From Candidatus Poribacteria bacterium (lineage in GTDB: Bacteria > Poribacteria > WGA-4E > WGA-3G), in the NCBI GenBank assembly GCA_965198235.1, contig OZ240248.1, forward strand, positions 4,998,881 through 5,062,880: a DNA stretch of 64,000 nt, given 5' to 3'. The notes under the pieces are model-generated. The model was not told where the DNA came from. It was given only the letters and a program-made list of their open reading frames with translations, and did no database searches. The position numbers and the translations under genes are program-made. Within the stretch, counting starts at the first letter, position 1; every line of letters starts with the position of its first letter. Positions 33,203-48,291 of this stretch are shown here, one piece after another.

Positions 33203-34339
33203 ATGGAGAACTATAGTCGTTTTACGGACCCCAAGTTGCCTGAAATCTATGAGAAGGTCAAGGCAGAACAACGACTCTCCTTTGAGGAGGGGGTCGCGCT
33301 TTATGAAAGCCCGGATATTACAGGGGTTGGATTTATAGCGAATCATGCCCGTGAACGTCTAAATGGAAACGTCGCTTACTATAACATCAACCAGCATATT
33401 GATTATTCAAATGTCTGTATTCTACACGCCCGGTGCCATTTTTGTGCTTTTGCCCGAAAAAATATGCAAACGGAAGGGGCGTGGGAAATGAGTGTTGATG
33501 AATTTTTAGACAAGGCGATGTATTCTATAGGGCACGGATGCACTGAGATTCACAGTGTTGGTGGGTTACATCCTAAATTACCTTTCGATTACTATTTAGA
33601 CATCATCCGCGGACTCAAGGAACGGATGCCACAGGTACACCTCAAATTCTTCACAGCTGTTGAAATCCATCACTTTTCGCGTATCTTTAAAATGTCGATA
33701 GAAAAAGTTTTAGCCGAATTACGGGATATAGGTTTGGATTCATTGCCCGGCGGTGGTGCTGAAATATTTGCGGAAGAAACGCGCGAGAAGATTTGCCCAG
33801 GAAAACTGAGTGCAGAAGGATGGCTGGAGGTTCACGACATCGCACACCGTCTCGGTATTCCCACAAATGCAACGATGCTTTACGGGCACCTTGAGACAAA
33901 CGAGGATAGAGTAGATCATTTCATTCGGTTGCGGGAGCAACAGGATAAGTCCGGTGGTTTCGTGACGTTCATTCCACTTGCGTTTCATCCTGCCAACACT
34001 CGCATGGCGTATCTACCCTCGACGACGGGTCTGACCGATCTTCGGAACATCGCCGTTGCACGTTTGATGCTCGATAACCTGCCGCACATTAAAGTTTACT
34101 GGATTATGACCGGCTTGAAAACGGCACAGGTCGCACTCCGTTTCGGGGCTGACGATATTGATGGCACTGTAACCGAGGAAAAAATTACACACATGGCGGG
34201 AGCGGACACGCCAGAGGCTGTTTCCGTTTCAGCACTAACACACCTCATTGAGGAGGCTGGCTTCGTCCCTGTTGAGCGTGATACACTTTACAATGAGATC
34301 ATTCGAGAGGGGAATCAGTGGTACAGAAAAGCCGCTTAA
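33203..34339 (+). CDS. Futalosine-pathway radical SAM enzyme (MqnE aminofutalosine synthase / MqnC-type; not resolved)
   Basis: CILHARCHFCAF cluster motif, GGLHP, and about 378 aa. Adjacent to mqnA. Confidence 0.8.
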   Translation: MENYSRFTDPKLPEIYEKVKAEQRLSFEEGVALYESPDITGVGFIANHARERLNGNVAYYNINQHIDYSNVCILHARCHFCAFARKNMQTEGAWEMSVDEFLDKAMYSIGHGCTEIHSVGGLHPKLPFDYYLDIIRGLKERMPQVHLKFFTAVEIHHFSRIFKMSIEKVLAELRDIGLDSLPGGGAEIFAEETREKICPGKLSAEGWLEVHDIAHRLGIPTNATMLYGHLETNEDRVDHFIRLREQQDKSGGFVTFIPLAFHPANTRMAYLPSTTGLTDLRNIAVARLMLDNLPHIKVYWIMTGLKTAQVALRFGADDIDGTVTEEKITHMAGADTPEAVSVSALTHLIEEAGFVPVERDTLYNEIIREGNQWYRKAA

Positions 34340-35157
34340 GGGTTGGCGCAGTCTCGTTTCTGAACACCAAACCGCTCATTTATTCCCTTTTGAACGAAGA
34401 AGTCCAAACGGATATTGCGCTGAGTGTTGATGTGCCAAGCCGCGTTGCGGCACTTTTAAGCAAAGGTGAGCTGGATGTTGGGTTAATTCCGATTGTTGAA
34501 TATTTTCGTGCGAATCCTTCGCATACGTCTTACTGCATTTTACCAGATATATCAATTGCGTCTCACGGAAGGGTGAAAAGTATCCAACTATTCAGTCGCG
34601 TTCCGATTCCAGAGATTCGACGTATTGGACTCGATACGAATTCCCGGACATCTATTGCGCTGCTTAAGATCCTACTCGCTGAGAAGTATCAAATCTCTCC
34701 AGCGTTCACAACTTGTAGACCAACAGTAAATCCAAAGACTGCCCTTCAAAATCGCCAAGATCCGCCTTTTGATGCAATCCTTCTCATCGGAGACGCAGCA
34801 CTCAGACACTTCGGTTCAACTGAATACAGTATGGACCCCGGTGAGGTGTGGTATAAGTTCACGGGTTTACCGTTCGTTTATGCCTGTTGGGTTGCCAGGA
34901 CGGAAGCGCATCTCGGTGATTTACCGGAGTTACTCCTTAAATCAAAGGCACATGGTATCGCACGAATCCCAGAAATCGCACGGATTGAGGCGCAAAAGCT
35001 TGGTTTGCCCGAGAAACTCTGCAGCCATTATTTGCAACATCATATCAAATATGACTTGGACGAATCTGCGATTAAAGGTCTTGAACTTTTTTATAAGTAT
35101 GCTGTGAAGAACGATCTTGCGCCGCCGTGTCGTCGTCTGTCTTTTGCGTCTAGTTGA
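34318..35157 (+). CDS. mqnA: Chorismate dehydratase (menaquinone via futalosine, step 1)
   Basis: LRVGAVSFLNTKPLIYSL, and a periplasmic-binding-protein-like length of 279 aa. GTG start overlaps the upstream gene. Confidence 0.8.
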   Translation: MVQKSRLRVGAVSFLNTKPLIYSLLNEEVQTDIALSVDVPSRVAALLSKGELDVGLIPIVEYFRANPSHTSYCILPDISIASHGRVKSIQLFSRVPIPEIRRIGLDTNSRTSIALLKILLAEKYQISPAFTTCRPTVNPKTALQNRQDPPFDAILLIGDAALRHFGSTEYSMDPGEVWYKFTGLPFVYACWVARTEAHLGDLPELLLKSKAHGIARIPEIARIEAQKLGLPEKLCSHYLQHHIKYDLDESAIKGLELFYKYAVKNDLAPPCRRLSFASS

Positions 35158-35170
35158 AAGGGGGCGGAAA

Positions 35171-35671
35171 ATGGAAGCCGTTGAAGAAGCCACTCGCGAT
35201 ACAGAGTTCGCAAAGCAGTTTGAAGATTATCTCAAAAGTTGTGGACTCCGTTTGACCCAAAAGCGATTGGACATTTTAAACCAGGTCTTTGACTATCCCG
35301 GACATTTTCAGACAGAGGACCTTCTGGTGCAGATGCGTCGAAACGGCTATCTGGTGTCGCGTCCGACGATCTATCGGACGTTGCCGCTGCTGGTAAGAAG
35401 TGGACTGCTGACAGAATTTATCGATGCACAGAAGAACACTCGTTATGAGAGTATTCATTCACTTCGGGAGCATGCGCATCTTATCTGTCTTCGGTGTAGT
35501 CAGATTGTTGAGTTTAAAGAACCGCAAATTGATGCGTTGCAGAAAGCGGTGTGTGAAGCGCACGACTTTAAAGCCGTGCGCTTCCGTAATGAAATAATTG
35601 GTTATTGTGCTGAATGCCAAGCAGAATTAGAGCCAAGGACACCTGATAAAGACGACGAAACTACTGCTTGA
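35171..35671 (+). CDS. Fur-family metalloregulator
   Basis: Start at the ATG at 35171. LRLTQKRLDILNQVF winged helix, HAHLICLRCSQIVEF, and a CAEC second CxxC. Confidence 0.85.
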   Translation: MEAVEEATRDTEFAKQFEDYLKSCGLRLTQKRLDILNQVFDYPGHFQTEDLLVQMRRNGYLVSRPTIYRTLPLLVRSGLLTEFIDAQKNTRYESIHSLREHAHLICLRCSQIVEFKEPQIDALQKAVCEAHDFKAVRFRNEIIGYCAECQAELEPRTPDKDDETTA

Positions 35672-35916
35672 GCCGACTCCACGTTGTGGTTAGCAATCCA
35701 TCCGGATGCACCGGCAAAGTCTTTTCGTCGGCTTTCTCGTAGTCTTCATCCGTAGGTTGATATTCCAGGTCACTGGACCAGCAGAAAACATCGTACTGGA
35801 CCTGGAGCGAACTCTGCCGTGTCCATATCATCATGACGTTCTCACCGTCTTGTAAATGGCTGGACCAGCAGAAGACAGAGGGTTAAACCGAGCGTTAATT
35901 GGAATCTCTGAAGCAT
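35661..35916 (-). pseudogene. Decayed small secreted-protein gene carrying the TTW-type tail
   Basis: The ATG at 35916 (after AAGGAG) gives MLQRFQLTLGLTLCLLLVQPFTRR-stop. A +1 frame continues ..VFCWSS..MMIWTRQ..DVFCWSSDLEYQ..HPDGLLTTTWSRLKQ-stop at 35661. Its 3' end overlaps the fur-family stop by 11 nt. Confidence 0.3.
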
Positions 35917-35984
35917 TATGCATTCTCCTTCATTTGTTTTGAGTCAGTTTAAACGAATTAAGGGAGATTGTAAACTTTAAAAAT

Positions 35985-36013
35985 TTGACAATCGTCTGGA
36001 AATATCGTATAAT
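35985..36013 (+). promoter_or_regulatory. Perfect-consensus sigma-70 promoter (TTGACA-17-TATAAT) upstream of the Fe-S genes
   Basis: -35 at 35985-35990 and -10 at 36008-36013, about 68 nt upstream of ATG 36081. Confidence 0.5.
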
Positions 36014-36080
36014 TGCAAAAACAGGTTTCTTTCTAATAAAATTATAGACGTGCCTTCTTCTGCGATGCGGGAAATGTCCC

Positions 36081-36461
36081 ATGTATACGCCACAGGTGAC
36101 CGAACATTACGAAAACCCGCGCAATATCGGAACTATCGTCGATGCTGATGGCACTGCCAGTGTCGGTTCTCCGGCTGACGGTGAGATGATAAAACTGACA
36201 CTCAAAATATCGAATGACGTGATCGTTGCAGCGAAATTTCGAGCCTTCGGTTGCCCTACCGCTATCGCGAGTGCTTCGATCCTCACTGAACTGATTATAG
36301 GCACTCAGGTCCCGGAGGCATTGGAAATTACTGCTGTGCAGCTTTCTGATGCGTTGGGAAGACTGCCGCTGGATAAACAACGTTACGCGAACACTGCTGA
36401 AAAAGTCCTAAAAATGGCAATTGCTGATTTTCTGTCCAAGAAGGAGGGGCAGTCATCATGA
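36081..36461 (+). CDS. IscU/NifU-N-like protein lacking two of the three cluster-ligand cysteines
   Basis: HYENPRNIG and FGCPTAIASAS are conserved. GAPACGD has become GSPADGE, and LPPVKIHC has become LPLDKQRY. Confidence 0.8.
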   Translation: MYTPQVTEHYENPRNIGTIVDADGTASVGSPADGEMIKLTLKISNDVIVAAKFRAFGCPTAIASASILTELIIGTQVPEALEITAVQLSDALGRLPLDKQRYANTAEKVLKMAIADFLSKKEGQSS

Positions 36462-36787
36462 TTACTGTCACAGAATCTGCCGCGCAAAAAGCGGTCGCTC
36501 TCATTAGCCACAGTGAAGCTCCAGCTGAATCCGAACTCGGCTTGCGGATGCAGGTTATCGGCGGTGGATGCTCCGGTTTCCAATATAATCTTGAGCTTGG
36601 TGCCGCGAAAGGGACCGACAAAGTTTTTGAATTTCACGGCTTGAAAGTTTTCATCGATCCTCGTAGTACGCTCTATCTCGCAGGCTCGGTACTCGACTAT
36701 AACGATGGGTTGATGGATTCAGGCTTTAAAATAACAAATCCGAACGCTAAAAATACATGCGGTTGTGGTGAGTCGTTTAGCGTTTAA
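36458..36787 (+). CDS. IscA/HesB-family iron-sulfur cluster insertion protein
   Basis: 109 aa. GGGCSGF..NPNAKNTCGCGESF C-terminal signature. ATGA overlap with the upstream gene. Confidence 0.9.
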   Translation: MITVTESAAQKAVALISHSEAPAESELGLRMQVIGGGCSGFQYNLELGAAKGTDKVFEFHGLKVFIDPRSTLYLAGSVLDYNDGLMDSGFKITNPNAKNTCGCGESFSV

Positions 36788-38645: not shown

Positions 38646-40187
38646 GTGATAAACCTTTGTAATGTCCTAAATAGTTCGATACGTCTACAGGTGCAGGCAC
38701 ATTGGGAACCGATTGCGGATTCTACGTTTCGTATGCACAAGACATCGCCAGAACACGTTGAACTCTTCGATCTGTCACCAAACCATCCTGTCAAAGAATA
38801 CAGGACAGACGCTTTCAAGGCATTTCTTCCGTCATCAACTGTAGGGGTGGGTGATGTTTGGGAACTTGATCCGAACAGTGTTGTCTCTTTCCTGCGCCAG
38901 TTTCATTCCGGTGTGACCACACCCGTATATCACGGTGCGGAGGGTGCGTTCGCCTGCTTACGTGCTTTTTCGTCAGTTTACGCTGAGATTGTTTTCCGAA
39001 TTCATGCGGACTTCACGTTGGAAAGCGTCGCTTATGAGAAGTGGCGTGCCGCCAACGCCTCGGAGGACGACGATAATAAATCCCGTTTTGTCCCCTCCCA
39101 TTTCGTCGGACGATTGTTAATCAATTTGAAAGAAGGAACGGTTCGGGTGTTTTCGCTCTATCTGCCGGCACGCAATAGTAACGTTGTCATCAGTGCTTTT
39201 GGCGGTATTGATATGGTTTATGTGCCGCGTATGGAACTCCTCGCTACGGACGAGACCGACAAAGACGAGATCGCGTGGGATGCTGCTATTACAACGGAAG
39301 AGGCACACCGGATGTTGGAATTGAAGTTCTATAAATTCGCTGAGATTGATTGGCTACCGATTGATGAGGCAGTTGCACAGGCGAAAGCGACCAATCGTCC
39401 GATCCATGCAATCCTCGTCTGGGGGTGTTTAGACGATGAATCCTGCTGAGCGAACGGCAAATATTTGAGGGCGGGTCCGCTCTCCGATTCAGAAGTGATA
39501 ACAACGCTCAACGAGAAGTTTGTCAATACATGGGTGCTCCTCCGGGAATTGCCAGAACTAATAGGTGGTGCGAAAGGCGAGGCGGTCAGCCTCGTCGCAA
39601 AAGAGATAAAACGCCACTACACTGACTCTGTAGATATTCTGGCACTCACCCCCGATGCGGAAGTTATCATGCATCAGCCGGAGATGGCTCTACCGTACAG
39701 GAACCAGGCGCAAGCGTATCTAAAAGTGTTACAGCATGCTGTGGACGCATTTGAAGGGAGACGCACCCGTGTAGGCAACGCGTCAAAATTAGATCGGAAC
39801 CCGATCAGCTTGGGGACGGAGTTGATGGAGGTTTTACACGTTTTTAGCACATCCGACACCAATACCCCGACTTACACAGTTATTGAAATTGATACGACAC
39901 CGTTTGAACGCGGTGGGATCCTCCACATTGAAATACATGTGGGTGAGAACAGGTTGGCAGGAACGTTTGAATTGTTTGATGCAGATACCGAAATTTCTAC
40001 AAAAAATGATGAAGATGAAACTCTGGATGGTGCATGGAACGTTTCATCCGGTGGTGTAGGGCACATCTTTCACGATTTTAGTCGGGGTCGGCGTTTCAAG
40101 TTAGTCGCTACAGGGGCAAACAACCAAAAGAGTGTTTCCAATGCTTTTCTGGCACGTGTCTCTATCGTCCCACCGTTTGAAAAATAG
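38646..40187 (+). CDS. Candidate selenoprotein A: unknown N-domain, thioredoxin-like fold with C-U motif (TGA 39447-39449 read as Sec), beta-rich C-domain
   Basis: ORFs 38646-39449 and 39465-40187 share a frame and are separated only by one TGA. The junction reads ..PIHAILVWGCLDDESC-U-ANGKYLRAGPLSDSEVITTLNEKFVNTWV. The second half has no SD or ATG. GTG start after GGAGG, and no signal peptide. Confidence 0.6.
39467..39484 (+). promoter_or_regulatory. SECIS-like hairpin 17 nt downstream of TGA (locus A)
   Basis: GAGGGCG-GGTC-CGCTCTC: 7 bp including one G-U pair, with apical loop GGUC. Confidence 0.45.
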
Positions 40188-40477: not shown

Positions 40478-41518
40478 ATGAAACATAAGTCGGTTTCTCC
40501 TTTTTTAGGAGTTGGAGGCTGCACCAAATTTCTAATATTCAGTTATGCTATCAGTGCCCTACTCATGTTCAGCGGCAGCACTGCTGTATGGGCAAAAGCC
40601 CCGGAGACAGCGAAAATTACATTTATGTCAAAGCGGGACGGTAACGCTGAGATCTATATCATGAACCCCGACGGGAGTGAGCAAGTCAATCTCACCCAAC
40701 ATCGTGCAGCCGATTATACACCAGCCTGGTCGCCAAACGGGAAACAGATATTGTTCAGCTCAGATCGAGATGGAATTTTTGATTTGTATCTTATGGACGC
40801 AGATGGCACAAATGTCCGGAAGGTGTTCGCAAGCAGCAAATACAGATGGGAGCCTGCCTGGTCGCCCGATGGTAAACGAATTGCCTATGCACAAGGAGAT
40901 CCAGGAAAGGCAAAACTACAGTTTGGGTTACGATTTGTCCCTTACGCCGATCTCACACTTTACATCGCAACACTAAATGGAGACTCCGTTGAGAAATTGA
41001 CGGATGGATTTGGTCCGAGTTGGTCTCCTGATGGACACGAGATAGCCTTTGTGGTGGGTGGTCGCAAAAGTACACTACTGGGTATTTACGACTTGAGGAA
41101 ACGTTCCCAAAAAACGCTCATCTCAAAGAAGATGCCGTGGATATTTGATCCCAGCTGGTCTGCACAGGGTGACAGAATAGCTTTCGCGAAACTCGAGGGT
41201 GCTGCGTTTGATGCACAAGGTTTTCTTAGGTTTAAGAAGGGTACGATTTACACCATAGATAGTGCTGGGGGTGGACTTCATCAGATTACCGACGAGAACT
41301 CTTCTGACCCAACCTGGTCCCCAGATGGCAGCGAACTCATTTACAACTCTCGGGTGGGTTTTTCGCAACTCTTCAGAACGGGCTTGAACGGCGACAATCC
41401 AACACAACTGACGCATGACGGAAGTAATTTGAGTCCAGATTGGTTTGACCCCTTTTATAGCGTTTCGCCGTCGGCGCAATTGTTAACGACGATGTGGGGA
41501 AAAATCAAAGTGGATTAA
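40478..41518 (+). CDS. Exported PD40/TolB-like beta-propeller protein with TTW-type tail
   Basis: Signal peptide. Repeated (P)xWSPDG/NG blades. Tail [15 protein letters not shown]. Confidence 0.8.
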
Positions 41519-41607
41519 GTTAACTATAAATCGTTCCAGATTCAGGGCAGTGAATGCCTTTTGCTTCCAATTGTCAAAATTTATTCCCAGATTTTCATTT
41601 TTTTTCA

Positions 41608-41650
41608 GAATTAGGCAACCGTTTTTCCGATCCTCCGCGTCACTATATAT
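41608..41650 (+). promoter_or_regulatory. ECF-type promoter motif P2
   Basis: GAATTAGGCAACC..CCGCGTCACTATATAT. AAC ends at 41619 and CGTC is at 41638-41641 (18-nt spacer). Confidence 0.5.
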
Positions 41651-41714
41651 CAACACGATATTTGTGTGACAAATTTTGGAAGATTCAAATGACTCCATAG
41701 GAGGAAGCGAAAAC

Positions 41715-42536
41715 ATGTTACGGACATTTACTGCTGCTTTTTCGAGTGTCATTATGCTATTGCTGGCAGCTTCTGCCAACGCGGGTTTGGATGAAGATCT
41801 CGTTTTTTATCTGACCTTTGATAACGTTAAAAATCAGACGATTATTGATGAATCTGGCAATGGTCTTGATGCAGAAATACTTGAGCATGTCGAGATTGTC
41901 AAGGGTAAATATGGAGATGCAATCCGTCTTAAAGGTCAAAGCGGGGATTGCGTTAATATCCCTGCTCAAGAGAAATTGAAAGTTATAGGCGAGATAACAA
42001 TGATGGCATGGATTTATTCTCCAGAAACATGGAACAACGAGAAGATGCATTGGCTGGAAAAAGATTGTCATTTCGTTGTTCCGATTGGTTGGGCGCACTG
42101 TTACGGTATCGCTGGTGTTGATGTCGGTAACGGACCAGAAATCTTTTTGTTTTTGGGATCACAGGTAGAGGGGAAATGGGACCGGCAGGAGTTCAGAACT
42201 CCACATAAAATGGGCGAAAAAAAATGGCATCACGTTGTCGGAAGTTACGATGGCGAAACCATGAAAATCTATGTGGATGGTACAGTCATAGGGGAAGAAA
42301 AGAAAAAATTCAATTTCTTTGGAGACAATGACGCGGACGTTCGGATCGGATGTGCAAAAGATGTCCCCCACCTTACATTCACAAACGGCTCTATTGATGA
42401 AGCTGCGGTCTGGCAACGAGCACTGAGTGATGATGAAATTAAACAAGCCATGACAGGGAACTTTCTCGCTGTTTCGCCGAGCGATAAAGTGGCGACGACT
42501 TGGGCGGATATGAAAAGAAGAGCAGTCGTTCCTTAA
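41715..42536 (+). CDS. Exported LamG-like domain protein with TTW-type tail
   Basis: Start set to the ATG at 41715 by comparison with the paralog at 43790 (RBS AGGAGGA). LVFYLTFDNVKNQT..DESGNG and IDEAAVWQRALSDDEIKQAM. Tail SDKVATTWADMKRRAVVP. Confidence 0.75.
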   Translation: MLRTFTAAFSSVIMLLLAASANAGLDEDLVFYLTFDNVKNQTIIDESGNGLDAEILEHVEIVKGKYGDAIRLKGQSGDCVNIPAQEKLKVIGEITMMAWIYSPETWNNEKMHWLEKDCHFVVPIGWAHCYGIAGVDVGNGPEIFLFLGSQVEGKWDRQEFRTPHKMGEKKWHHVVGSYDGETMKIYVDGTVIGEEKKKFNFFGDNDADVRIGCAKDVPHLTFTNGSIDEAAVWQRALSDDEIKQAMTGNFLAVSPSDKVATTWADMKRRAVVP

Positions 42537-42579
42537 CGGCTACCTGCAAAGTCAGAATTTCCCCATAAAGGAATGTAGG

Positions 42580-43602
42580 ATGAAAACAATACGGTTGTTA
42601 GTTTTTGCCATATTGAACATATTGATGCTGAACGTAAGCGTTTGCCTCGCTTTCGCAACAGCACCCACAACCGCCAAAATTCTGTTCACCTCTTCACGGG
42701 ACGGCAATTATGAGGTCTACATCATGAATCCGGACGGTAGTGAACAGGTGAATTTAACACAACATCGCGCAAATGATTTTCAAGCCGTATGGTCCCCCAC
42801 TGGGGAGCAGATTCTTTTTGTCTCCGATCGCGATGGCGGCATCCGAGACTTGTATCTGATGGACCCCAGTGGATCCAATGTCCGACGCGTTTTCACGAGG
42901 AAACGAAAGTCTTATAGGGATTCTCCGACGTGGGCACCCGATGGCAACCAGATTGCTTACGTACACCTGAATTGGAACGGTGTCAGGTTCCATATCTACG
43001 TTGCAATCTTGGGTAAACAAAAAGAGGAACACCTCGTTGAGGGTAGACGTCCGACGTGGTCACCCGATGGAACGAAAATAGCATATATGTCTTATATTGT
43101 AGATACCTGCCGAATTGCTCTTATTGACCCCCACACACGAAGGCAAAAACACCTCCTATCGAGGAAAGCAACGCCTTGGCAAAATCATCCATTTTGGTCG
43201 GCTACGGGGAGCAAACTCGCTTTTTCTTGGAATAAGAATCCGTTACCGCGCCTTTTGCCGGGTGATCGTTTCCCATCCGTATGGCTGGATAAGGAGACAA
43301 TCTATATTGTGAACAGCGACGGGACCGATCTCCGAGAACTTCTGGATGAAGCTGGGCCCAGAGCACAGTATCCAGTGTTGTCGCCAGACGGGAAAGAGGT
43401 ACTTTATACACAAGAAATTAAGGGTCGCCTACAAATTTTCAAACTTGATGTACACAGTGCCACTCGGGCACAGTTGACAAATATCGGGCGAGTCTTTGAG
43501 GCGAATTTCGGAGGGGATTGGTTCGATCCTGTGTATTCGTTGCCTGTTTCGCCACAATCGCGACTGCTAAGCACAGTATGGGGAAAAGTAAAAAAGAAAT
43601 AG
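42580..43602 (+). CDS. Exported PD40/TolB-like beta-propeller protein with TTW-type tail (paralog)
   Basis: Signal peptide and WSP(T/D)G repeats. Tail QSRLLSTVWGKVKKK. Confidence 0.8.
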   Translation: MKTIRLLVFAILNILMLNVSVCLAFATAPTTAKILFTSSRDGNYEVYIMNPDGSEQVNLTQHRANDFQAVWSPTGEQILFVSDRDGGIRDLYLMDPSGSNVRRVFTRKRKSYRDSPTWAPDGNQIAYVHLNWNGVRFHIYVAILGKQKEEHLVEGRRPTWSPDGTKIAYMSYIVDTCRIALIDPHTRRQKHLLSRKATPWQNHPFWSATGSKLAFSWNKNPLPRLLPGDRFPSVWLDKETIYIVNSDGTDLRELLDEAGPRAQYPVLSPDGKEVLYTQEIKGRLQIFKLDVHSATRAQLTNIGRVFEANFGGDWFDPVYSLPVSPQSRLLSTVWGKVKKK

Positions 43603-43682
43603 TGTCATAGGTAGAATCACCATGAAACTGCTGTGTTATGCACGTTTTCCGCTTTGTGTATCATATTTTCTTTATGTTTGCA

Positions 43683-43725
43683 GAATTAGGCAACCGTTTT
43701 GTCTGTCTCCCGCGTCATTATATAT
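43683..43725 (+). promoter_or_regulatory. ECF-type promoter motif P3
   Basis: GAATTAGGCAACC..CCGCGTCATTATATAT. CGTC is at 43713-43716 with an 18-nt spacer. The downstream leader is nearly identical to that after P2. Confidence 0.5.
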
Positions 43726-43789
43726 CGATACGATAGCTGTGTGACAAATTTTAGAAAGTTCAAATGACTCTATAGGAGGAACAGAAAAC

Positions 43790-44611
43790 ATGTTACGGAC
43801 ATTTATTGCTGCTTTTTCGAGTGTCGTTATACTGTTGTTGGCAGCTCCTGCCAACGCAGGTTTGAATGAGAAACTCGTTTTTTATCTGACGTTTGATAAT
43901 GTTAAAGATCAGACAGTTGTTGACGAATCTGGGAATGGTCAGGACGCAGAGATACTTGAGAACACCGAGATTGTCAGGGGCAAATATGGGAATGCCATTC
44001 ATATTACAGATGATGGTCAGGATTGCGTCAGTATTCCTTCTCAGGAAAAACTGAAAATTACAAGCGAAATAACAATGATGACCTGGATTTATTATCAAGA
44101 AACATGGAAAGGCAAAAGGATGTTGCATTGGCTTGATAAAGGCTGCCATTCGGGAGACGGTTGGGCTGGAACTTACGGTATCGGCAGTTCCGATATCGGT
44201 AACGGACCAGAGATTGTGTTGTTTTTCGGGTCGCGGGAGAAACAGGGGATTACGGACCGGCATGAATTCGCAGTTCTACACAAAATGGGTGTTCAAAAAT
44301 GGCATCATGTTGCTGGGAGCTACGATGGGAAAACCATGAAAATTTATTTAGATGGTAAAGTCATAGGTGCGGAAAAGAAGAATTTCAATCTCTTTGGTGG
44401 TAATAACGTGAACCTCAGGATCGGATGCGCAAAAAACAGCCCGCAGTATGCATTTGCCAACGGTTCTATTGACGAAGCCGCAGTCTGGCAACGAGCATTG
44501 AGTGATGATGAAATCAAGCAGGCGATGGTAGGGGACTTCCTCGCTGTTTCACCGAGTGATAAAGTTGCAACGACTTGGGCGGATGTGAAAAAGAGGATGA
44601 TAGCCCGTTAG
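43790..44611 (+). CDS. Exported LamG-like domain protein with TTW-type tail (paralog of 41715-42536)
   Basis: About 70% identical by eye to 41715-42536. Tail SDKVATTWADVKKRMIAR. Confidence 0.75.
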   Translation: MLRTFIAAFSSVVILLLAAPANAGLNEKLVFYLTFDNVKDQTVVDESGNGQDAEILENTEIVRGKYGNAIHITDDGQDCVSIPSQEKLKITSEITMMTWIYYQETWKGKRMLHWLDKGCHSGDGWAGTYGIGSSDIGNGPEIVLFFGSREKQGITDRHEFAVLHKMGVQKWHHVAGSYDGKTMKIYLDGKVIGAEKKNFNLFGGNNVNLRIGCAKNSPQYAFANGSIDEAAVWQRALSDDEIKQAMVGDFLAVSPSDKVATTWADVKKRMIAR

Positions 44612-45037: not shown

Positions 45038-45186
45038 CATCGGGTTTTCTATTCTCACTGCGAAGCAATAGTACTGCTCTGGAGCGATGGAATTTGTCCG
45101 TCACCTGCTTGGAATAGGCGTGATATATCCTGTCGAATCTTTCTAATCTTTATGTCAACTCCACGTTACTATAAGGAGATTTGAAG

Positions 45187-46866
45187 ATGAAAATCTTAAC
45201 CGTTGGGTTTCTTATTCTGGTAATGATGAGTGGAGTGCTGAATGCCGATAACCACTCAACAACTCACAACAAAATTACACTGAACCTTGACGGGACCCCA
45301 GAAGTATCTGTCAAAGGCTTCATTGCTCCGATTGAATATACACAATACAATTTCCATGTGGAGTGGGATGAACTGGCAAATCTGCGGGTTGCTGAGCCGG
45401 AGAAGCGGTATTCTGCATCGGTTTTCCATGCCTTTCTGCCCTCCGAAGCGGTTTCTGTAGGCGATCTCTGGCAGATTGAGGAAGAGGGGGTGCTAGAATT
45501 ACTAAGGCAACTGAACCCCAATCCGAGGCTGGACCTGGACATCAATATGGGAGATTCCCGTGGACTGTGGGCATGTCTGCGCGCCTACAATGATGAATTT
45601 GCTAAGATTGTGTTCCGCATCCATGCAGAATTCGTCTTAAACGATGGTCGGTTCACTCCATCTCAGTTTACAGGACATCTTGTTATTGATCGAATTAGAG
45701 AGAGGATTGCCTCCTTCAAGATGTATGTTCCTGAAGGTGTACTGAATTTTGATGTCGGGCGAAACAGTATCGGAGCTATAGATGTCGGTTTTTGCCCGCA
45801 AATGGAACTCCGTGCTAAGGCACCAGAAGTGGTATCGGACATCAAGTTTGCGGAGTCCATCACCCAAGAAGCGGCTGAGCGGGTGCTGATACTGCGTTTC
45901 TACAGATCGCAACAAATCAACTGGGTGTCTCTGGAAGAAGCGTTAGAGACGGCACCGGCGCAACGAAAACCTGTTCATGTTGTTTCGATAGATGGACCGC
46001 TTGCGGATGAGTCGTGCTGAGGGAGTGGCAAAACTCTGAGGGCAGTTGTCCTCTCTGACGATAAAATTATAGAGTTCTTGAACGAAAACTTTGTTAACAC
46101 ATGGGTGCCGAATTCTGAATTAGGGCGCGTCTCCAGTTTGCGGGAGCCGATTGACAAGAGACGCGAGCGCGAAGGTAAAACGTTTGACACAAGCCACGCC
46201 TTGGCACAAGCAATTATAAAGGGTTGGAAAGAGGGGTCGCCTGTGGATTGTCTGGTTATCTCGCCGGAGTTTGAAGTGATGGGTAGGCAACCTGTCAACG
46301 AAATCGGGTGGTCCAACGGAGTAGCATTTTACATGAATTTCCTCCAAGAGTCCTTAGAGGGGAAACTACCAGGGTTCGGTGAGGCCGCCTCGAAACCTTT
46401 ACCGAAACCTAGTTCAGAGTCTTACTCTGGATTAGGTGCTGTTGTGCCAGAGGATTTAAAAGTTATACTCACCCGTGAAAAGCCCCAGCAGGAAGTTCTC
46501 AGCATTTTCCGGACACCAGAATCCGGCTATCAAGATTATACTGTCGTTGAAATTGATACGACAGCGTTTAAAGGCGGCGGTATGCTTACTATTGATATCT
46601 TAGTAGGAAGTGCTGAATCCAAAGGCTCGTTCGATCTTTATGATGGTGACACTGAACTTCCAACACAAGGTATGCCTCGCGGCGCGCTTACCTCTGCGTG
46701 GGATGTTCCTCCCGGTAAAAGAGGAACAATCAAGTATCGTTTTGACCGGGGTAAAGTTTTTAAGTTAGGAGCTACAGGCAGTTGGTTCAGTAAGGAAGGG
46801 AACATCAACGCTTTTCTCGCTACAATTTCTGTAGCCCCTATGGCGAAAGAAAGTAACGAACATTAA
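45187..46866 (+). CDS. Candidate selenoprotein B (exported): unknown N-domain, thioredoxin-like fold with C-U motif (TGA 46018-46020 read as Sec), beta-rich C-domain
   Basis: ORFs 45181-46020 and 46078-46866 share a frame with only one TGA and no other stop between them. The junction reads ..PVHVVSIDGPLADESC-U-GSGKTLRAVVLSDDKIIEFLNENFVNTWV. ATG at 45187 after AAGGAG. Signal peptide MKILTVGFLILVMMSGVLNA. Confidence 0.6.
46038..46053 (+). promoter_or_regulatory. SECIS-like hairpin 17 nt downstream of TGA (locus B)
   Basis: GAGGGC-AGTT-GTCCTC: 6 bp including one G-U pair, with G and U in the apical loop. Same offset from the TGA as in locus A. Confidence 0.4.
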
Positions 46867-46962: not shown

Positions 46963-48291
46963 ATGAAAAACGACGATGTCGAATTAATTCAAGGCAGTCT
47001 TATAGGCGATGAAAAAGCCTTTGCGAAGTTGGTGAGAAAATACCAGAAGCAGGTTCACGCACTCGCGTGGCGGAAAGTAGGCGATTTCCACATCGCTGAA
47101 GAGATTACGCAGGATACCTTTTTAAGGGTTTATAAGAAACTGGCAACGCTGAAGGATCCGCATCGTTTTGCAGGATGGCTTTATAGAATCGCTGCACGCC
47201 AATGCCATGCCTGGCTCAGAAAGAAACGGATGCAAACGCAATCGCTTGAAGACACAGACATCGAACTGATAGAGGGAGGGACGTATTCTCAATACATTGC
47301 CGAGGAGCAGGAGAAAGCTGCGGTAGATGCGCAACGCGATATTGTCCAAAGGTTACTCGCTCGGCTGCAGGAAAGTGAACGCACTGTCGTCACACTCCAC
47401 TACTTCGGGGAGATGACCTGTGAAGAGATTAGCCGATTTTTGGGTGTATCAGAGAGTACCGTTAAGAGTCGGCTCCGCCGTGCGCGGCACCGCTTAAAGA
47501 AGGCGGAACCCATGATCCGAGAGGCACTGGAAGGCTTCCAAGTTAGGGCGAATCTCACCGAGAATATCATGCAAGAAATTGCCCGTATCAAACCTACTCC
47601 ACCGCCCAGTGGTAAACCGTTTGTGCCGTGGACAATTGCCGCCTCAACCCTTGTTCTCGTTGTGATGGCACTTGGAGCAAGTAGTCAGTACTTAACACGT
47701 TTCCAACAACCTTACAATTTTGATGCCACATCCGAAATGACAGTAGAACTCATTGACACGCCTATGGTTCTGAATCTCGCATCGAAACCGGATGTGCGGA
47801 CCCAAGCCGGTAAATCTGTGACACCGAGTAAAGGCGACGGACATACCCCGAGCACAAATCAATCAGAATATGTGCCGAGATTTCTTTCTGCCCAAGCAAA
47901 GAACGTCGTGCTTGATAATAAACAGCCTTCGCAGGATGTTTTGAGCATTTTCCAAACACCGGCGGCGGGCTATCAAGACTACACTGTCATTGAGATTGAT
48001 ACGACGGCATTTAAAGATGGCGGCACGGTCACTATCGACCTTTGGATTGGGAGCGCAGAGGCTGCTGGTGCTTTCATTCTGTTTACAAGCGACAGCGAAA
48101 TCCCCACAGACAGTATGCCTAAGGTTATACTCACCTCAGCATCAGGAATCATACCCGGTAAATCAGGGCGGATCACGCACCGTTTTGACGAAGGCACACG
48201 CTTTAAGTTAGGAGCTACCGGTAATTCGTTCAGTGGGGAAGGGAAGGTCAATTCCTTTCTCGCAAAAATCTCTATAGACGCTACGTTGTGA
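46963..48291 (+). CDS. ECF sigma factor fused via one TM helix to an extracytoplasmic domain homologous to the selenoprotein C-domain
   Basis: Region 2 (ITQDTFLRVYKKL..FAGWLYRIAARQCHAWLRKK) and region 4 (ERTVVTLHYFGEMTCEEISRFLGVSESTVKSRLRRARHRLKK). TM helix WTIAASTLVLVVMALGASS. C-terminal ..DVLSIFQTPAAGYQDYTVIEIDTTAFKDGG..FKLGATG..NSFLAKISI parallels 46490-46850. Confidence 0.8.
   Translation: MKNDDVELIQGSLIGDEKAFAKLVRKYQKQVHALAWRKVGDFHIAEEITQDTFLRVYKKLATLKDPHRFAGWLYRIAARQCHAWLRKKRMQTQSLEDTDIELIEGGTYSQYIAEEQEKAAVDAQRDIVQRLLARLQESERTVVTLHYFGEMTCEEISRFLGVSESTVKSRLRRARHRLKKAEPMIREALEGFQVRANLTENIMQEIARIKPTPPPSGKPFVPWTIAASTLVLVVMALGASSQYLTRFQQPYNFDATSEMTVELIDTPMVLNLASKPDVRTQAGKSVTPSKGDGHTPSTNQSEYVPRFLSAQAKNVVLDNKQPSQDVLSIFQTPAAGYQDYTVIEIDTTAFKDGGTVTIDLWIGSAEAAGAFILFTSDSEIPTDSMPKVILTSASGIIPGKSGRITHRFDEGTRFKLGATGNSFSGEGKVNSFLAKISIDATL

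What the first reader, a model, noticed from the sequence alone, without database searches (positions are those of the whole stretch)
46018..46053. Locus B: paralogous gene with a TGA at the same codon position and a hairpin at the same offset (independent support for Sec)
Seen in sequence: ORFs 45181-46020 and 46078-46866 share a frame. The 57 nt between them contain no stop. Read-through gives ..WVSLEEALETAPAQRKPVHVVSIDGPLADESC-[TGA]-GSGKTLRAVVLSDDKIIEFLNENFVNTWVPN.. The motif DESC-U-xxGKxLRA is conserved with locus A, although the surrounding residues differ. Seventeen nt after the TGA is the hairpin GAGGGC-AGUU-GUCCUC (46038-46053). The codons forming its 3' arm encode V-V-L-S here and G-P-L-S in locus A, yet pairing is kept. 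Inference: two diverged paralogs keeping the same TGA and a downstream hairpin argues against sequencing error or a pseudogene. Locus B has a clear signal peptide (MKILTVGFLILVMMSGVLNA), so this would be an exported selenoprotein. Locus A lacks a signal peptide.
Basis: partly seen in the sequence, partly recalled or inferred. Interest (0 to 1): 0.8.

Follow-up and report, generated by a model that had tools for sequence, protein, structure and literature searches.

The report
Bacterial selenoprotein N homolog, exported
The in-frame TGA at 46018 almost certainly encodes selenocysteine in one 559-residue exported protein, and this protein is a bacterial (Poribacteria) relative of animal selenoprotein N, the muscle-disease protein whose biochemistry is still unclear.

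Summary
ORFs 45181-46020 and 46078-46866 are one reading frame interrupted only by TGA 46018-46020, and a 6-bp hairpin lies at 46038-46053.

Evidence that the TGA is read as selenocysteine (Sec):
- In 77 Candidatus Poribacteria loci I found 134 copies of this gene family. All 134 have TGA at this codon, never TAA, TAG or a sense codon, whereas their true terminal stops are mixed.
- The peptide just after the TGA (GSGKxLRAxxLS) is conserved with coding periodicity, and there is no start codon before it.
- The hairpin is kept by compensatory changes and by forced codon choice (Arg is always AGR). It meets the published bacterial SECIS (Sec insertion sequence) constraints.
- Cys-containing bacterial homologs exist (DESC-C-GSGK), and they lack the hairpin.
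- Poribacteria carry SelA, SelB and SelD according to the literature.

New finding: the family is homologous to animal selenoprotein N (SELENON/SEPN1). hhalign gives probability 100% and E 6e-52, and the TGA column falls on the position in the animal DDQSC-x-GSGRTLRE motif where, as I recall it, human SELENON has its Sec. The predicted structure is an N-terminal beta domain, a thioredoxin-like domain with Cys-Sec at the start of helix 1, and a C-terminal beta-sandwich. A membrane-anchored ECF sigma factor encoded next door shares that sandwich.

No curated NCBIfam or Pfam model and no searched paper describes a bacterial SelenoN. The Sec machinery of this particular genome was not seen.

The parts
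45173..45178 (+). Shine-Dalgarno sequence AAGGAG, 8 nt before the start codon of locus B
   Evidence: Read directly from the sequence.
45187..46866 (+). Full read-through coding sequence of locus B: 559 codons with Sec at codon 278, then stop TAA at 46864-46866. It is a bacterial SelenoN homolog.
   Evidence: Translation. Full-length homologs span the TGA. BLASTP against Nematostella SelN gives E 1e-33. hhalign against animal SelN gives E 6e-52.
45187..45246 (+). Putative Sec-type signal peptide MKILTVGFLILVMMSGVLNA
   Evidence: It is the only hydrophobic window in the protein. The same leader is conserved in many homologs, while a sister subgroup starts directly at MKTLxNKITLNLD without it. 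SignalP was not run.
45289..45888 (+). N-terminal beta-rich domain (about aa 35-234), shared with animal SelenoN. It includes the FRIHAEF and TPSQFTG motifs.
   Evidence: AlphaFold2 model of homolog P0001. hhalign aligned columns.
45889..46371 (+). Thioredoxin-like domain (about aa 235-395), with Cys277-Sec278 at the N-terminus of helix 1
   Evidence: The AlphaFold2 model shows beta-alpha-beta-alpha-beta-beta-alpha topology, with C308-G309 of P0001 just before helix 311-317. Foldseek matches 7tkv, a Thioredox_DsbH domain protein, at E 3.6e-4. Pfam Thioredox_DsbH and Thioredoxin_7 hits are sub-threshold.
46018..46020 (+). In-frame UGA, read as selenocysteine (codon 278)
   Evidence: TGA is present in 134 of 134 family copies. 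Cys sits at this column in P0132, P0134, P0148, P0153 and P0178. The column aligns with the variable residue x of the animal DDQSC-x-GSGRTLRE motif.
46038..46053 (+). Bacterial SECIS-type hairpin: stem 46038-46043 pairs with 46048-46053, loop AGUU at 46044-46047
   Evidence: Folding. Covariation. Synonymous-site constraint. Published bSECIS constraints from PMC13188914. The hairpin is absent in Cys-forms and weakened in Trp and Thr forms.
46462..46833 (+). C-terminal beta-sandwich domain (about aa 426-549). It is bacteria-specific and shared with the neighbouring ECF sigma factor.
   Evidence: tblastn shows 60% identity to 47905-48276. AlphaFold2 strands 431-556. Foldseek matches the collagen-binding domain 3jqw, PliG and GOLD-type sandwiches.
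38646..40187 (+). Locus A: a deep paralog (35% identity) without a signal peptide. TGA is at 39447-39449 and the SECIS hairpin at 39467-39484 (7 bp, loop GGUC).
   Evidence: A-type copies occur in L003, L007 and L011, with a compensatory C-G to U-A change.
46963..48291 (+). Membrane-anchored ECF sigma factor. Sigma regions 2 and 4 lie in aa 1-185, a TM helix at about aa 219-241, and an extracytoplasmic beta-sandwich homologous to the C-terminus of B follows. It is the likely functional partner.
   Evidence: Pfam. Hydropathy. Synteny is conserved in at least 33 loci.

Best explanation
Locus B is one gene (45187-46866). It encodes a 559-residue selenoprotein, the bacterial homolog of animal selenoprotein N.

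Recoding step:
- UGA 46018-46020 is recoded to selenocysteine.
- The mRNA hairpin 17 nt downstream (46038-46053; 6 bp, loop AGUU) acts as a bacterial SECIS.
- The hairpin recruits SelB-GTP-Sec-tRNA(Sec) to the ribosome while the UGA is in the A site.
- Ribosomes that fail to insert Sec terminate and release a 277-residue N-terminal fragment.

Protein:
- The product is exported through its N-terminal signal peptide.
- Sec278 follows Cys277 at the start of helix 1 of a thioredoxin-like domain. This is the position of the attacking Cys of a CxxC motif.
- The Cys-Sec pair most likely cycles between selenolate/thiol and a selenenylsulfide, acting as a thiol/peroxide oxidoreductase centre. This is what is proposed for the corresponding Cys-Sec motif of SELENON.

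Proposed cellular role:
- The C-terminal beta-sandwich is shared with the extracytoplasmic domain of the membrane-anchored ECF sigma factor encoded immediately downstream.
- I therefore infer that the selenoprotein is the redox-reactive partner or input module of that envelope-stress sigma factor.

Shown here: the gene continuity, the conserved TGA, the selected hairpin, the Sec/Cys pairs, the SelenoN homology, the domain layout and the synteny.

Inferred: actual Se insertion, export, the chemistry, and the link to the sigma factor.
For: **The TGA is conserved and the frame is continuous**
- TGA is invariant in 134 of 134 copies. Terminal stops of the same genes are TAA 54, TGA 44 and TAG 25.
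- In an exhaustive HMM search, nearly all of the 150 listed 50%-identity representatives (934 in all with E<1e-3) end at the residue before this column or start just after it.
- The segment after the TGA shows codon periodicity; for example all four bases occur at the Gly wobble position. No ATG, GTG or TTG lies before codon 7, and codon 7 is CTG in 67 of 116 sequences.

**The hairpin is selected**
- 96.7% of cells are paired, with 12 compensatory cells against a shuffle mean of 2.1; 0 of 500 shuffles reach that.
- 115 of 116 unique sequences form a perfect 6-bp helix.
- Arg is AGR in all 118 unique sequences, against 21% AGR in window genes. Leu is CTC or CTT in all 118, and Ser is TCN in all 118.
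- Wobble entropy is 0-0.6 at five of the six wobble columns within 21-36 (1.11 at column 33, the covarying 3' partner of column 24), against 0.75-1.5 in columns 39-54.

**The hairpin fits the published bSECIS model**
- The model asks for a 3-9 nt loop with G in its first two positions, a 4-16 bp stem, 16-37 nt between UGA and loop, and MFE of -7.5 or lower (PMC13188914).
- B has 23 nt spacing, 6 bp, loop AGUU and -8.9 kcal/mol. A has 24 nt, 7 bp, loop GGUC and -11.0 kcal/mol.

**Forms without Sec**
- Cys-forms read DESC-C-GSGK. They use CGT for the Arg and lack the hairpin.
- Trp and Thr forms have weak hairpins, -3.7 to -4.9 kcal/mol.

**Sec is used in the phylum**
- Ca. Poribacteria WGA-3G has SelA, SelB and SelD in Slaby 2017 Table S4. 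The same genome carries a TGA copy of the family, at L059:3769.
- Sec-containing hydrogenases are reported in Poribacteria.

**SelenoN homology**
- The Nematostella protein P0220 is 45% identical to proteins named Selenoprotein N.
- B against P0220 gives E 1e-33.
- The profile-profile comparison gives probability 100%, E 6.2e-52 and 345 aligned columns, with the U column on the animal C/U column.

**Structure**.

**Sigma link**.
Against: - No selA, selB, selD or tRNA-Sec was found in the 64-kb window or in 724 kb of related loci. The Sec machinery of this particular genome is therefore unseen.
- No Rfam SECIS family matches the hairpin.
- Single-sequence folding energy is not exceptional. Against synonymous recodings the mean z is only -1.24.
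- Gly-forms, which have no UGA, still keep a fairly good hairpin, -6.3 to -11.6 kcal/mol. Part of the hairpin conservation could therefore be inherited or serve another purpose.
- Non-Sec paralogs within Poribacteria carry Gly, Trp or Thr rather than Cys, which is unusual for a catalytic Sec.
- Thioredoxin-family Pfam hits are below threshold.
- Export, redox chemistry and the sigma-factor connection are all inference.
Confidence: 0.88

Rival explanations
1. There are two separate genes. Translation truly stops at 46020. The downstream protein is started independently, by coupling or re-initiation, at the Leu/Met codon 18 nt later (TTG, CTG or ATG). The GGGAG right after the TGA serves as its Shine-Dalgarno sequence.
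For: - GGGAG sits 10 nt upstream of that codon.
- The codon is TTG or ATG in 49 of 116 sequences.
- Gene callers in public data do split the gene this way.
Against: - In B itself, and in 67 of 116 sequences, the codon is CTG, which is a poor start.
- The 'spacer' GSGK shows codon-periodic conservation and is homologous to translated sequence in Cys, Gly and animal forms.
- A plain stop would drift among TAA, TAG and TGA, as the real terminal stops do. Here it is TGA in 134 of 134 copies.
- A split would cut the thioredoxin-like fold between strand 1 and helix 1.
Confidence: 0.03
2. The UGA is read through, but not as Sec. It is read by near-cognate or suppressor decoding as Trp, Cys or Gly, and the hairpin merely stimulates read-through.
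For: - Paralogs carry Gly (GGA, GGC, GGT) or Trp (TGG) at the column.
- The Sec machinery of this genome was not seen.
- TGA is otherwise an ordinary stop here, ending 14 other window genes.
Against: - The hairpin matches the SelB-type bSECIS geometry and loop rule.
- Poribacteria encode SelA, SelB and SelD.
- The homologous animal protein is an established selenoprotein. As I recall it, its Sec is at the aligned position.
- Cys-forms elsewhere are the classic Sec/Cys pair.
Confidence: 0.06
3. The gene is a pseudogene, or the TGA is a sequencing or assembly error.
For: None beyond the presence of a stop codon inside a reading frame.
Against: - The same TGA occurs in 134 independent copies from different assemblies, including long-read complete chromosomes.
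- Both halves are under purifying selection.
Confidence: 0.005

Closest known systems
Selenoprotein N (SELENON / SEPN1 / SelN) of animals
   Same: - Homology covers about 345 aligned columns, spanning the N-terminal beta domain and the thioredoxin-like domain (hhalign probability 100%, E 6e-52; BLASTP E 1e-33).
- The motif is the same: bacterial DESC-U-GSGKxLR and WGCLDDESC-U-ANGKYLR against animal WGALDDQSC-x-GSGRTLRE. The x column holds Cys in sea urchin P0291. From memory, the Sec of human SELENON sits at x, in the 'SCUG' motif.
- Both are extracytoplasmic or luminal. SELENON faces the ER lumen (PMC9344019) and B has a signal peptide.
   Different: - The bacterial proteins have no N-terminal transmembrane anchor and no EF-hand (Pfam).
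- They carry an extra C-terminal beta-sandwich that is absent from animals.
- They are present in many copies per genome, including tandem arrays.
- Sec insertion is signalled by a hairpin inside the coding sequence right after the UGA, not by a eukaryotic 3'-UTR SECIS.
- Their genomic partners are an ECF sigma factor and ABC transporters, not SERCA2 and ERO1.
Bacterial selenoprotein genes with an in-frame UGA and a downstream bSECIS (for example E. coli fdhF, or thioredoxin-fold selenoproteins from marine metagenomes)
   Same: - The UGA is followed within 16-37 nt by the apical loop of a short hairpin with G at loop position 1 or 2.
- Cys homologs exist.
- Sec sits at the redox position of a thioredoxin-like fold.
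- The loop of locus A, GGUC, is the same tetranucleotide I recall for the E. coli fdhF SECIS loop.
   Different: - The family is not in NCBIfam's curated selenoprotein models.
- It is not in the family table of the 2026 review of prokaryotic selenoproteomes.
- Its vicinal Cys-Sec motif is followed by GSGK rather than being UxxC or CxxU.
Thioredox_DsbH / DUF255 (PF03190) and Thioredoxin_7 (PF13899) thioredoxin-like domains
   Same: - The predicted beta-alpha-beta-alpha-beta-beta-alpha fold is the same.
- The redox residue sits at the helix-1 N-terminus.
- A conserved Pro (in S-P-V-D) precedes strand 3.
- Foldseek matches 7tkv at E 3.6e-4.
   Different: - Sequence matches are below Pfam thresholds (12-17 bits against a cutoff of 27).
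- There is no CxxC. The second Cys position is Gly, and the partner Cys precedes the Sec.
C-terminal GCUG redox centre of mammalian thioredoxin reductase
   Same: It has an adjacent Cys-Sec pair flanked by small residues, which would form an eight-membered selenenylsulfide ring (from established knowledge, not tested here).
   Different: In thioredoxin reductase the pair is on a flexible C-terminal tail of a flavoenzyme. Here it is internal, at the active-site position of a thioredoxin-like domain, and there is no flavin domain.

Membership tests
Bacterial Sec-UGA selenoprotein gene | The in-frame UGA is conserved across orthologs and paralogs and is not interchangeable with other stop codons. 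| tested here: met
   TGA is present in 134 of 134 copies. Terminal stops of the same genes are TAA 54, TGA 44 and TAG 25.
Bacterial Sec-UGA selenoprotein gene | One protein is encoded on both sides of the UGA, meaning homology to uninterrupted proteins. | tested here: met
   Full-length Gly, Trp, Thr and Cys forms and animal SelN all span the column.
Bacterial Sec-UGA selenoprotein gene | Cys-containing homologs are aligned at the UGA (a Sec/Cys pair). | tested here: met
   P0132, P0134, P0148, P0153 and P0178 read DE[SA]C-C-[GA][ST]GK, with codons TGT or TGC.
Bacterial Sec-UGA selenoprotein gene | [quoted passage not shown] | tested here: met
   B has 6 bp, loop AGUU, 23 nt spacing and -8.9 kcal/mol. 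A has 7 bp, loop GGUC, 24 nt and -11.0 kcal/mol. The criteria come from PMC13188914.
Bacterial Sec-UGA selenoprotein gene | The hairpin is maintained by selection, shown by covariation or synonymous constraint. | tested here: met
   There are 12 compensatory cells, reached by 0 of 500 shuffles. Arg is AGR in all 118 unique sequences. Wobble positions are frozen in the stem. Caveat: Gly-forms keep much of the hairpin.
Bacterial Sec-UGA selenoprotein gene | selA, selB, selC (tRNA-Sec) and selD are present in the same genome. | not testable with these tools
At phylum level, Ca. Poribacteria WGA-3G has SelA, SelB and SelD and carries a TGA copy of the family (L059).
Bacterial Sec-UGA selenoprotein gene | Selenium is demonstrated in the protein. 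| not testable with these tools
   This needs 75Se labelling or mass spectrometry.
Selenoprotein N (SELENON) | Sequence homology is significant over the conserved luminal region. | tested here: met
   hhalign gives probability 100%, E 6.2e-52, 345 columns and 30% identity. BLASTP gives E 1e-33 to 1e-43 for A and B against animal SelN. The animal sequences are named Selenoprotein N by NCBI and UniProt.
Selenoprotein N (SELENON) | Sec lies in the S-C-U-G motif at the homologous position. | tested here: met
   The UGA column aligns with the variable residue of DDQSC-x-GSGRTLRE. That the human residue is Sec is from memory; database gene models mis-splice around it.
Selenoprotein N (SELENON) | The protein has an N-terminal transmembrane anchor and an EF-hand calcium sensor. 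| tested here: not met
   A and B have no EF-hand hit, whereas animal SelN sequences do. B has a cleavable-type leader instead, and A has none.
Selenoprotein N (SELENON) | A eukaryotic SECIS lies in the 3' UTR. | tested here: not met
   No Rfam SECIS hit was found in the window. The signal is an in-CDS bacterial hairpin.
Thioredoxin-fold oxidoreductase (Thioredox_DsbH / Thioredoxin_7) | The Pfam model is matched above the gathering score. | tested here: not met
   The best scores are 17.1 bits (A) and 11.8-14.3 bits (B), against a cutoff of 27.
Thioredoxin-fold oxidoreductase (Thioredox_DsbH / Thioredoxin_7) | The protein has a thioredoxin fold with the redox residue at the N-terminus of helix 1. 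| tested here: met
   In the AlphaFold2 model of P0001 (pLDDT 76.6) the elements are b1 294-299, C308-G309, a1 311-332, b2 334-339, b3 372-377, b4 383-388 and a3 397-412. Foldseek matches 7tkv at E 3.6e-4. This was tested on a 55%-identical Gly-form, not on B itself.
Thioredoxin-fold oxidoreductase (Thioredox_DsbH / Thioredoxin_7) | A CxxC (or UxxC / CxxU) motif is present. | tested here: not met
   The motif is C-U-G-S-G. The position of the second Cys is Gly in all copies.

The most novel reading that the evidence does not exclude
SelenoN is not an animal invention. It is an ancient bacterial extracytoplasmic redox module, and selenocysteine has been kept at the same Cys-Sec site in two domains of life that use incompatible SECIS systems.

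In bacteria it works as the sensor or input of membrane-anchored ECF sigma factors:
- It is fused to the sigma factor in some bacteria (P0134).
- It is encoded next to a sigma gene in others (L086).
- In Poribacteria it shares a beta-sandwich with the sigma factor's extracytoplasmic domain.

The family is massively expanded in sponge symbionts, possibly in connection with the host, which has its own SelN.

This would provide a tractable prokaryotic model, with operon context, Cys variants and natural Gly/Trp loss-of-Sec variants, for the unknown biochemistry of the human myopathy protein SELENON.
Probability: 0.3. Interest if true: 0.85.

Novelty: new member of a known kind. Interest (0 to 1): 0.66.

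Why it matters
SELENON mutations cause SEPN1-related myopathy. One searched paper (2009) calls its function elusive, and a 2022 review describes only a redox activity toward SERCA (PMC2739516, PMC9344019). As I understand it, its catalytic reaction and direct substrates are still unknown, and Pfam has no model for its conserved region.

What the bacterial branch offers:
- It is large and diverse: 934 representatives at 50% identity and 337 related stretches in the GTDB species genomes.
- It comes in natural Sec, Cys, Gly, Trp and Thr variants.
- It has exported and cytoplasmic forms.
- It has conserved operon partners: a membrane ECF sigma factor and ABC2-type transporters.

These give testable hypotheses and easy expression targets for structure and enzymology.

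For genome annotation, essentially every copy in public data is split into two 'hypothetical proteins' at the TGA. This also hides what is probably one of the largest selenoprotein gene families in any bacterial phylum.

For evolution, Sec is conserved at one site under two different SECIS systems. That raises the question of transfer between sponges and their symbionts versus ancient origin.

Tried and rejected
- **Rfam.** At gathering threshold on the whole window, and at E up to 10 on both loci, there was no SECIS or tRNA-Sec match. Only chance snoRNA and hammerhead hits appeared.
- **ARAGORN.** No tRNA was found in the window or in 60 loci.
- **Single-sequence folding.** z-scores against shuffles are unremarkable, so the hairpin cannot be judged on one sequence.
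- **NCBIfam.** There is no family hit for A or B.
- **Pfam.** Only sub-threshold thioredoxin-like hits were found.
- **PDB sequence profile of the central domain.** Only noise was returned, so no family member has a solved structure there.
- **AlphaFold2 on B.** A 55%-identical Gly-form was modelled instead.
- **Probes for selD and selB.** E. coli sequences recalled from memory gave no hit in 724 kb of window plus loci.
- **My recollection about Chernorudskiy et al. 2020.** I recalled that this paper described a bacterial SEPN1 homolog. The paper contains no mention of bacteria or homologs, so I dropped the idea.
- **Genetic-code reassignment (UGA=Gly or UGA=Trp).** I considered this because paralogs have Gly or Trp at the column. 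I rejected it because 14 other window genes end in TGA.
- **A recent animal-to-Poribacteria transfer.** I considered this. No bacterial subgroup is closer than about 25-31% identity to animals, and animals are monophyletic in a rough NJ tree. The direction of transfer remains open.
Full report
**1. Observation**

- ATG 45187 is preceded by AAGGAG at 45173-45178. It opens a frame that runs to TAA 46864-46866 with a single interruption, TGA 46018-46020.
- The read-through peptide is ...IDGPLADESC-[TGA]-GSGKTLRAVVLSDDKIIEFLNENFVNTWVPN...
- The hairpin GAGGGC-AGUU-GUCCUC occupies 46038-46053.
- A tblastn of the read-through product against the window finds locus A (38646-40187, 35% identity over about 540 aa). 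Its TGA, at 39447-39449, is at the same alignment column.
- The same search unexpectedly finds the C-terminal 125 aa of the next gene, 46963-48291, at 60% identity.
- The locus A hairpin starts at the same offset but pairs in a register shifted by two: 7 bp with loop GGUC.
- On a single sequence none of this is statistically striking. Folding z-scores are -0.2 to -0.95.

**2. The TGA is a conserved, translated codon**

A protein search returned three classes of Candidatus Poribacteria homologs:
- full-length proteins of about 557 aa;
- N-terminal halves that end exactly at ...DE[AV]C;
- C-terminal halves that start a few residues after the TGA.

A scan of one genome per GTDB species found 337 related stretches. 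The 77 best loci are all Poribacteria. In these loci plus the window, a motif search that allowed any residue at the column found 134 gene copies (118 unique 66-nt contexts). Every one has TGA there. The genuine terminal stops of the same genes are TAA 54, TGA 44 and TAG 25.

An exhaustive profile search of 1.84 billion representatives found 934 family members. Nearly all of the 150 listed matches stop at profile position 308, the Cys before the column, or begin at 315.

TGA is an ordinary stop for 14 other genes of the window, so the code is standard.

The 15 nt after the TGA encode G-S-G-K-x with variation concentrated at wobble positions. They hold no ATG, GTG or TTG. The next candidate start, codon 7, is CTG in 67 of 116 unique sequences, including B. 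Independent initiation of the downstream half is therefore very unlikely.

**3. The hairpin is selected and looks like a bacterial SECIS**

Measured on 116 unique sequences:
- The 6-bp helix (columns 21-26 with 31-36) is paired in 96.7% of cells.
- There are 12 compensatory double-change cells, against a shuffle mean of 2.1; 0 of 500 shuffles reach 12. The slid-partner controls are all much worse.
- The unpaired cells belong to sequences that use the register of locus A instead.
- Taking either register, 115 of 116 sequences form a perfect 6-bp helix.
- Examples of compensation are GAGGGC/GUCCUC, GAGAGC/GCUCUC, GAGAAC/GUUCUC and, in the A type, GAGGGCG/CGCUCUC against GAGAGUG/CACUCUC.

Codon choice is forced:
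- Arg is AGG or AGA in all 118 unique sequences, although 79% of Arg codons in window genes are CGN.
- Leu is CTC or CTT in all 118, and Ser is TCN in all 118.
- Wobble entropy is 0-0.6 bits at five of the six wobble columns within 21-36 (1.11 at column 33, the covarying partner of column 24), against 0.75-1.5 just downstream.

Loops are AGGU (69 sequences), AGUU (33) and GGUC (4), plus a few longer variants.

The published consensus for bacterial SECIS elements has four constraints (PMC13188914): a 3-9 nt loop with G in its first two positions, usually followed by G or U; a 4-16 bp stem; 16-37 nt from UGA to loop; and MFE of -7.5 kcal/mol or lower. Both loci meet all four. B has 23 nt and -8.9 kcal/mol; A has 24 nt and -11.0 kcal/mol.

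**4. Forms without Sec**

Poribacterial full-length paralogs carry other residues at the column:
- Gly (GGA, GGC, GGT), Trp (TGG) or Thr (ACT). GGA and TGG are each one mutation from TGA.
- In a rough NJ tree these forms branch beside the B-type Sec clade, so they look like losses of Sec.
- Their hairpins range from well kept in some Gly forms (-11.6 kcal/mol, loop AACU without the G) to decayed in the Trp and Thr forms (-3.7 to -4.9 kcal/mol).

The exhaustive search also found true Cys-forms in other, unnamed bacteria. P0132, P0134, P0148, P0153 and P0178 read DE[SA]C-C-[GA][ST]GK. In the three whose DNA I fetched, the codon is TGT or TGC, the Arg codon is CGT, and the family hairpin is absent. 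This is the classical Sec/Cys pair.

**5. Sec machinery**

None is in the window or in 724 kb of related loci, and I could not reach the rest of this genome. The evidence is at phylum level:
- Slaby et al. 2017 report SelA and SelB enriched in sponge-symbiont bins.
- Their Table S4 lists SelA=2, SelB=1 and SelD=1 for Ca. Poribacteria WGA-3G. That same genome carries a TGA copy of this family (L059).
- A 2026 study lists Poribacteria among phyla with Sec-containing group 4 hydrogenases.

**6. Identity: a bacterial selenoprotein N**

One representative that crosses the column, P0220, is from the sea anemone Nematostella (A7S7Z1, 'EF-hand domain-containing protein'). Its homologs are the proteins named Selenoprotein N or SELN in vertebrates, at about 45% identity and E of about 1e-115.
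- B aligns to P0220 over residues 35-373 with E 1e-33.
- A and B reach E 1e-33 to 1e-43 against several animal SelN sequences.
- A profile-profile comparison of the Poribacteria alignment with an animal SelN alignment gives probability 100%, E 6.2e-52 and 345 columns.
- That comparison places the UGA column exactly on the variable residue of the animal motif WGALDDQSC-x-GSGRTLRE.
- From memory, that residue is the Sec of the human 'SCUG' motif. Database gene models visibly mis-splice around it, and sea urchin has Cys there.
- Locus A (VWGCLDDESC-U-ANGKYLRAGPLS) is particularly close to the animal motif.

The bacterial proteins lack the animal transmembrane anchor and EF-hand. They add a C-terminal domain.

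**7. Architecture**

AlphaFold2 on the Gly-form P0001 (55% identical to B; mean pLDDT 76.6) gives three parts:
- a beta-rich N-terminal domain;
- a beta-alpha-beta-alpha-beta-beta-alpha thioredoxin-like domain, in which Cys308-Gly309 (equivalent to Cys277-Sec278 of B) sit immediately before helix 1;
- a C-terminal beta-sandwich.

Foldseek against the PDB matches the sandwich to collagen-binding, PliG and GOLD-type domains. It matches the central domain to a Thioredox_DsbH protein, 7tkv, at E 3.6e-4. Pfam thioredoxin models are hit only below threshold. By eye, Sec lines up with the first Cys of the CxxC motif in Thioredoxin_7. The second Cys position is Gly, so the preceding Cys is the likely resolving partner.

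**8. Context**

The next gene (46963-48291) is an ECF sigma factor (Pfam). It has one transmembrane helix at about aa 219-241 and an extracytoplasmic tail ending in the same beta-sandwich as B.
- This gene follows the signal-peptide Sec-forms in at least 33 loci.
- Gly-forms always lie in the order ECF sigma, Gly-form, two ABC2 permeases, ABC ATPase.
- Outside Poribacteria, P0134 fuses sigma regions 2 and 4 to a SelN-like domain in one polypeptide.
- The Cys-form P0132 lies directly downstream of a sigma-70 family gene.

The family has members with the MKxLTxGxLILxxMSGQLNAD leader and members that start right after it. It therefore works on both sides of the membrane. B is of the exported type and A of the leaderless type.

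**9. Mechanism and confidence**

- Sec insertion at 46018 through a SelB-bound hairpin: about 0.88.
- Homology to SelenoN: effectively certain.
- Export: likely.
- A Cys-Sec selenenylsulfide redox centre: an inference from position and from SELENON and thioredoxin-reductase chemistry.
- A functional link to the ECF sigma factor: a hypothesis resting on the shared domain, synteny and fusions.

**10. Novelty**

I found no prior description of a bacterial SelenoN:
- No NCBIfam model, including the curated selenoprotein families, hits A or B.
- Pfam has no SelN model.
- The 2026 review of prokaryotic selenoproteomes does not mention SelN.
- No paper in the searchable library links SelN with Poribacteria or with bacterial homologs.
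- The key SELENON paper I half-remembered says nothing about bacteria.
- Subscription literature and InterPro could not be checked, so prior knowledge cannot be excluded.

I file it as a new member of known kinds: a bacterial bSECIS selenoprotein, and the SelenoN family.

Noticed in passing
window 46963-48291 (+): This is an ECF sigma factor with a single transmembrane helix (about aa 219-241). Its extracytoplasmic C-terminal beta-sandwich is 60% identical to the C-terminus of locus B. The gene follows signal-peptide Sec-forms in at least 33 of 77 Poribacteria loci.
   Followed up: partly
P0134 (Logan contig); L086:3796-6254: Outside Poribacteria the SelN-like domain is fused to an ECF sigma factor in one polypeptide (P0134). 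Alternatively it lies directly downstream of a sigma-70 family gene (Cys-form P0132). This suggests a general sigma-factor link.
   Followed up: partly
L078:4630-13338, L082, L083, L084: Paralogs that have lost Sec (Gly at the column; codons GGA, GGC, GGT) sit in a conserved block: ECF sigma, Gly-form, two ABC2-type permeases, ABC ATPase. Some still keep a good hairpin, but with a loop lacking G (AACU).
   Followed up: partly
window 40478-44611 (+): Between loci A and B lie two tandem pairs of a PD40/TolB-like beta-propeller gene followed by a LamG (Laminin_G_3) gene.
   Followed up: no
L086:5922-5981: The Cys-form P0132 lacks the family hairpin. It has a different, strong GC-rich stem (GCGGC..GGCAC-UCC-GUGCC..GCCGC) right after the Cys codon. 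I cannot tell whether this is chance or a relic.
   Followed up: no
L002:3001-5004, L004, L020, L021, L034 and others: Some family copies are 650-680 aa long and have the C-terminal beta-sandwich duplicated in tandem. Many loci hold two or three family genes in tandem arrays.
   Followed up: no
window +35105, +36459, +58712, -10426, -42161: These are the other TGAs with long open stretches on both sides in the same frame. They appear to be overlaps of spurious ORFs with real genes (the FUR, NifU/IscA, galactokinase, PhyH and LamG regions), not further selenoprotein candidates.
   Followed up: no
window 33203-36787 (+): Upstream neighbourhood: menaquinone (futalosine pathway) genes (radical-SAM CofH/MqnC-like, VitK2_biosynth), a FUR regulator, and NifU/IscA Fe-S assembly genes. 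No link to the finding is apparent.
   Followed up: no
PMC4807772 (literature): A Sec/Gly homolog pairing like the one seen here has been reported before, for the fmdB selenoprotein in Planctomycetes.
   Followed up: no
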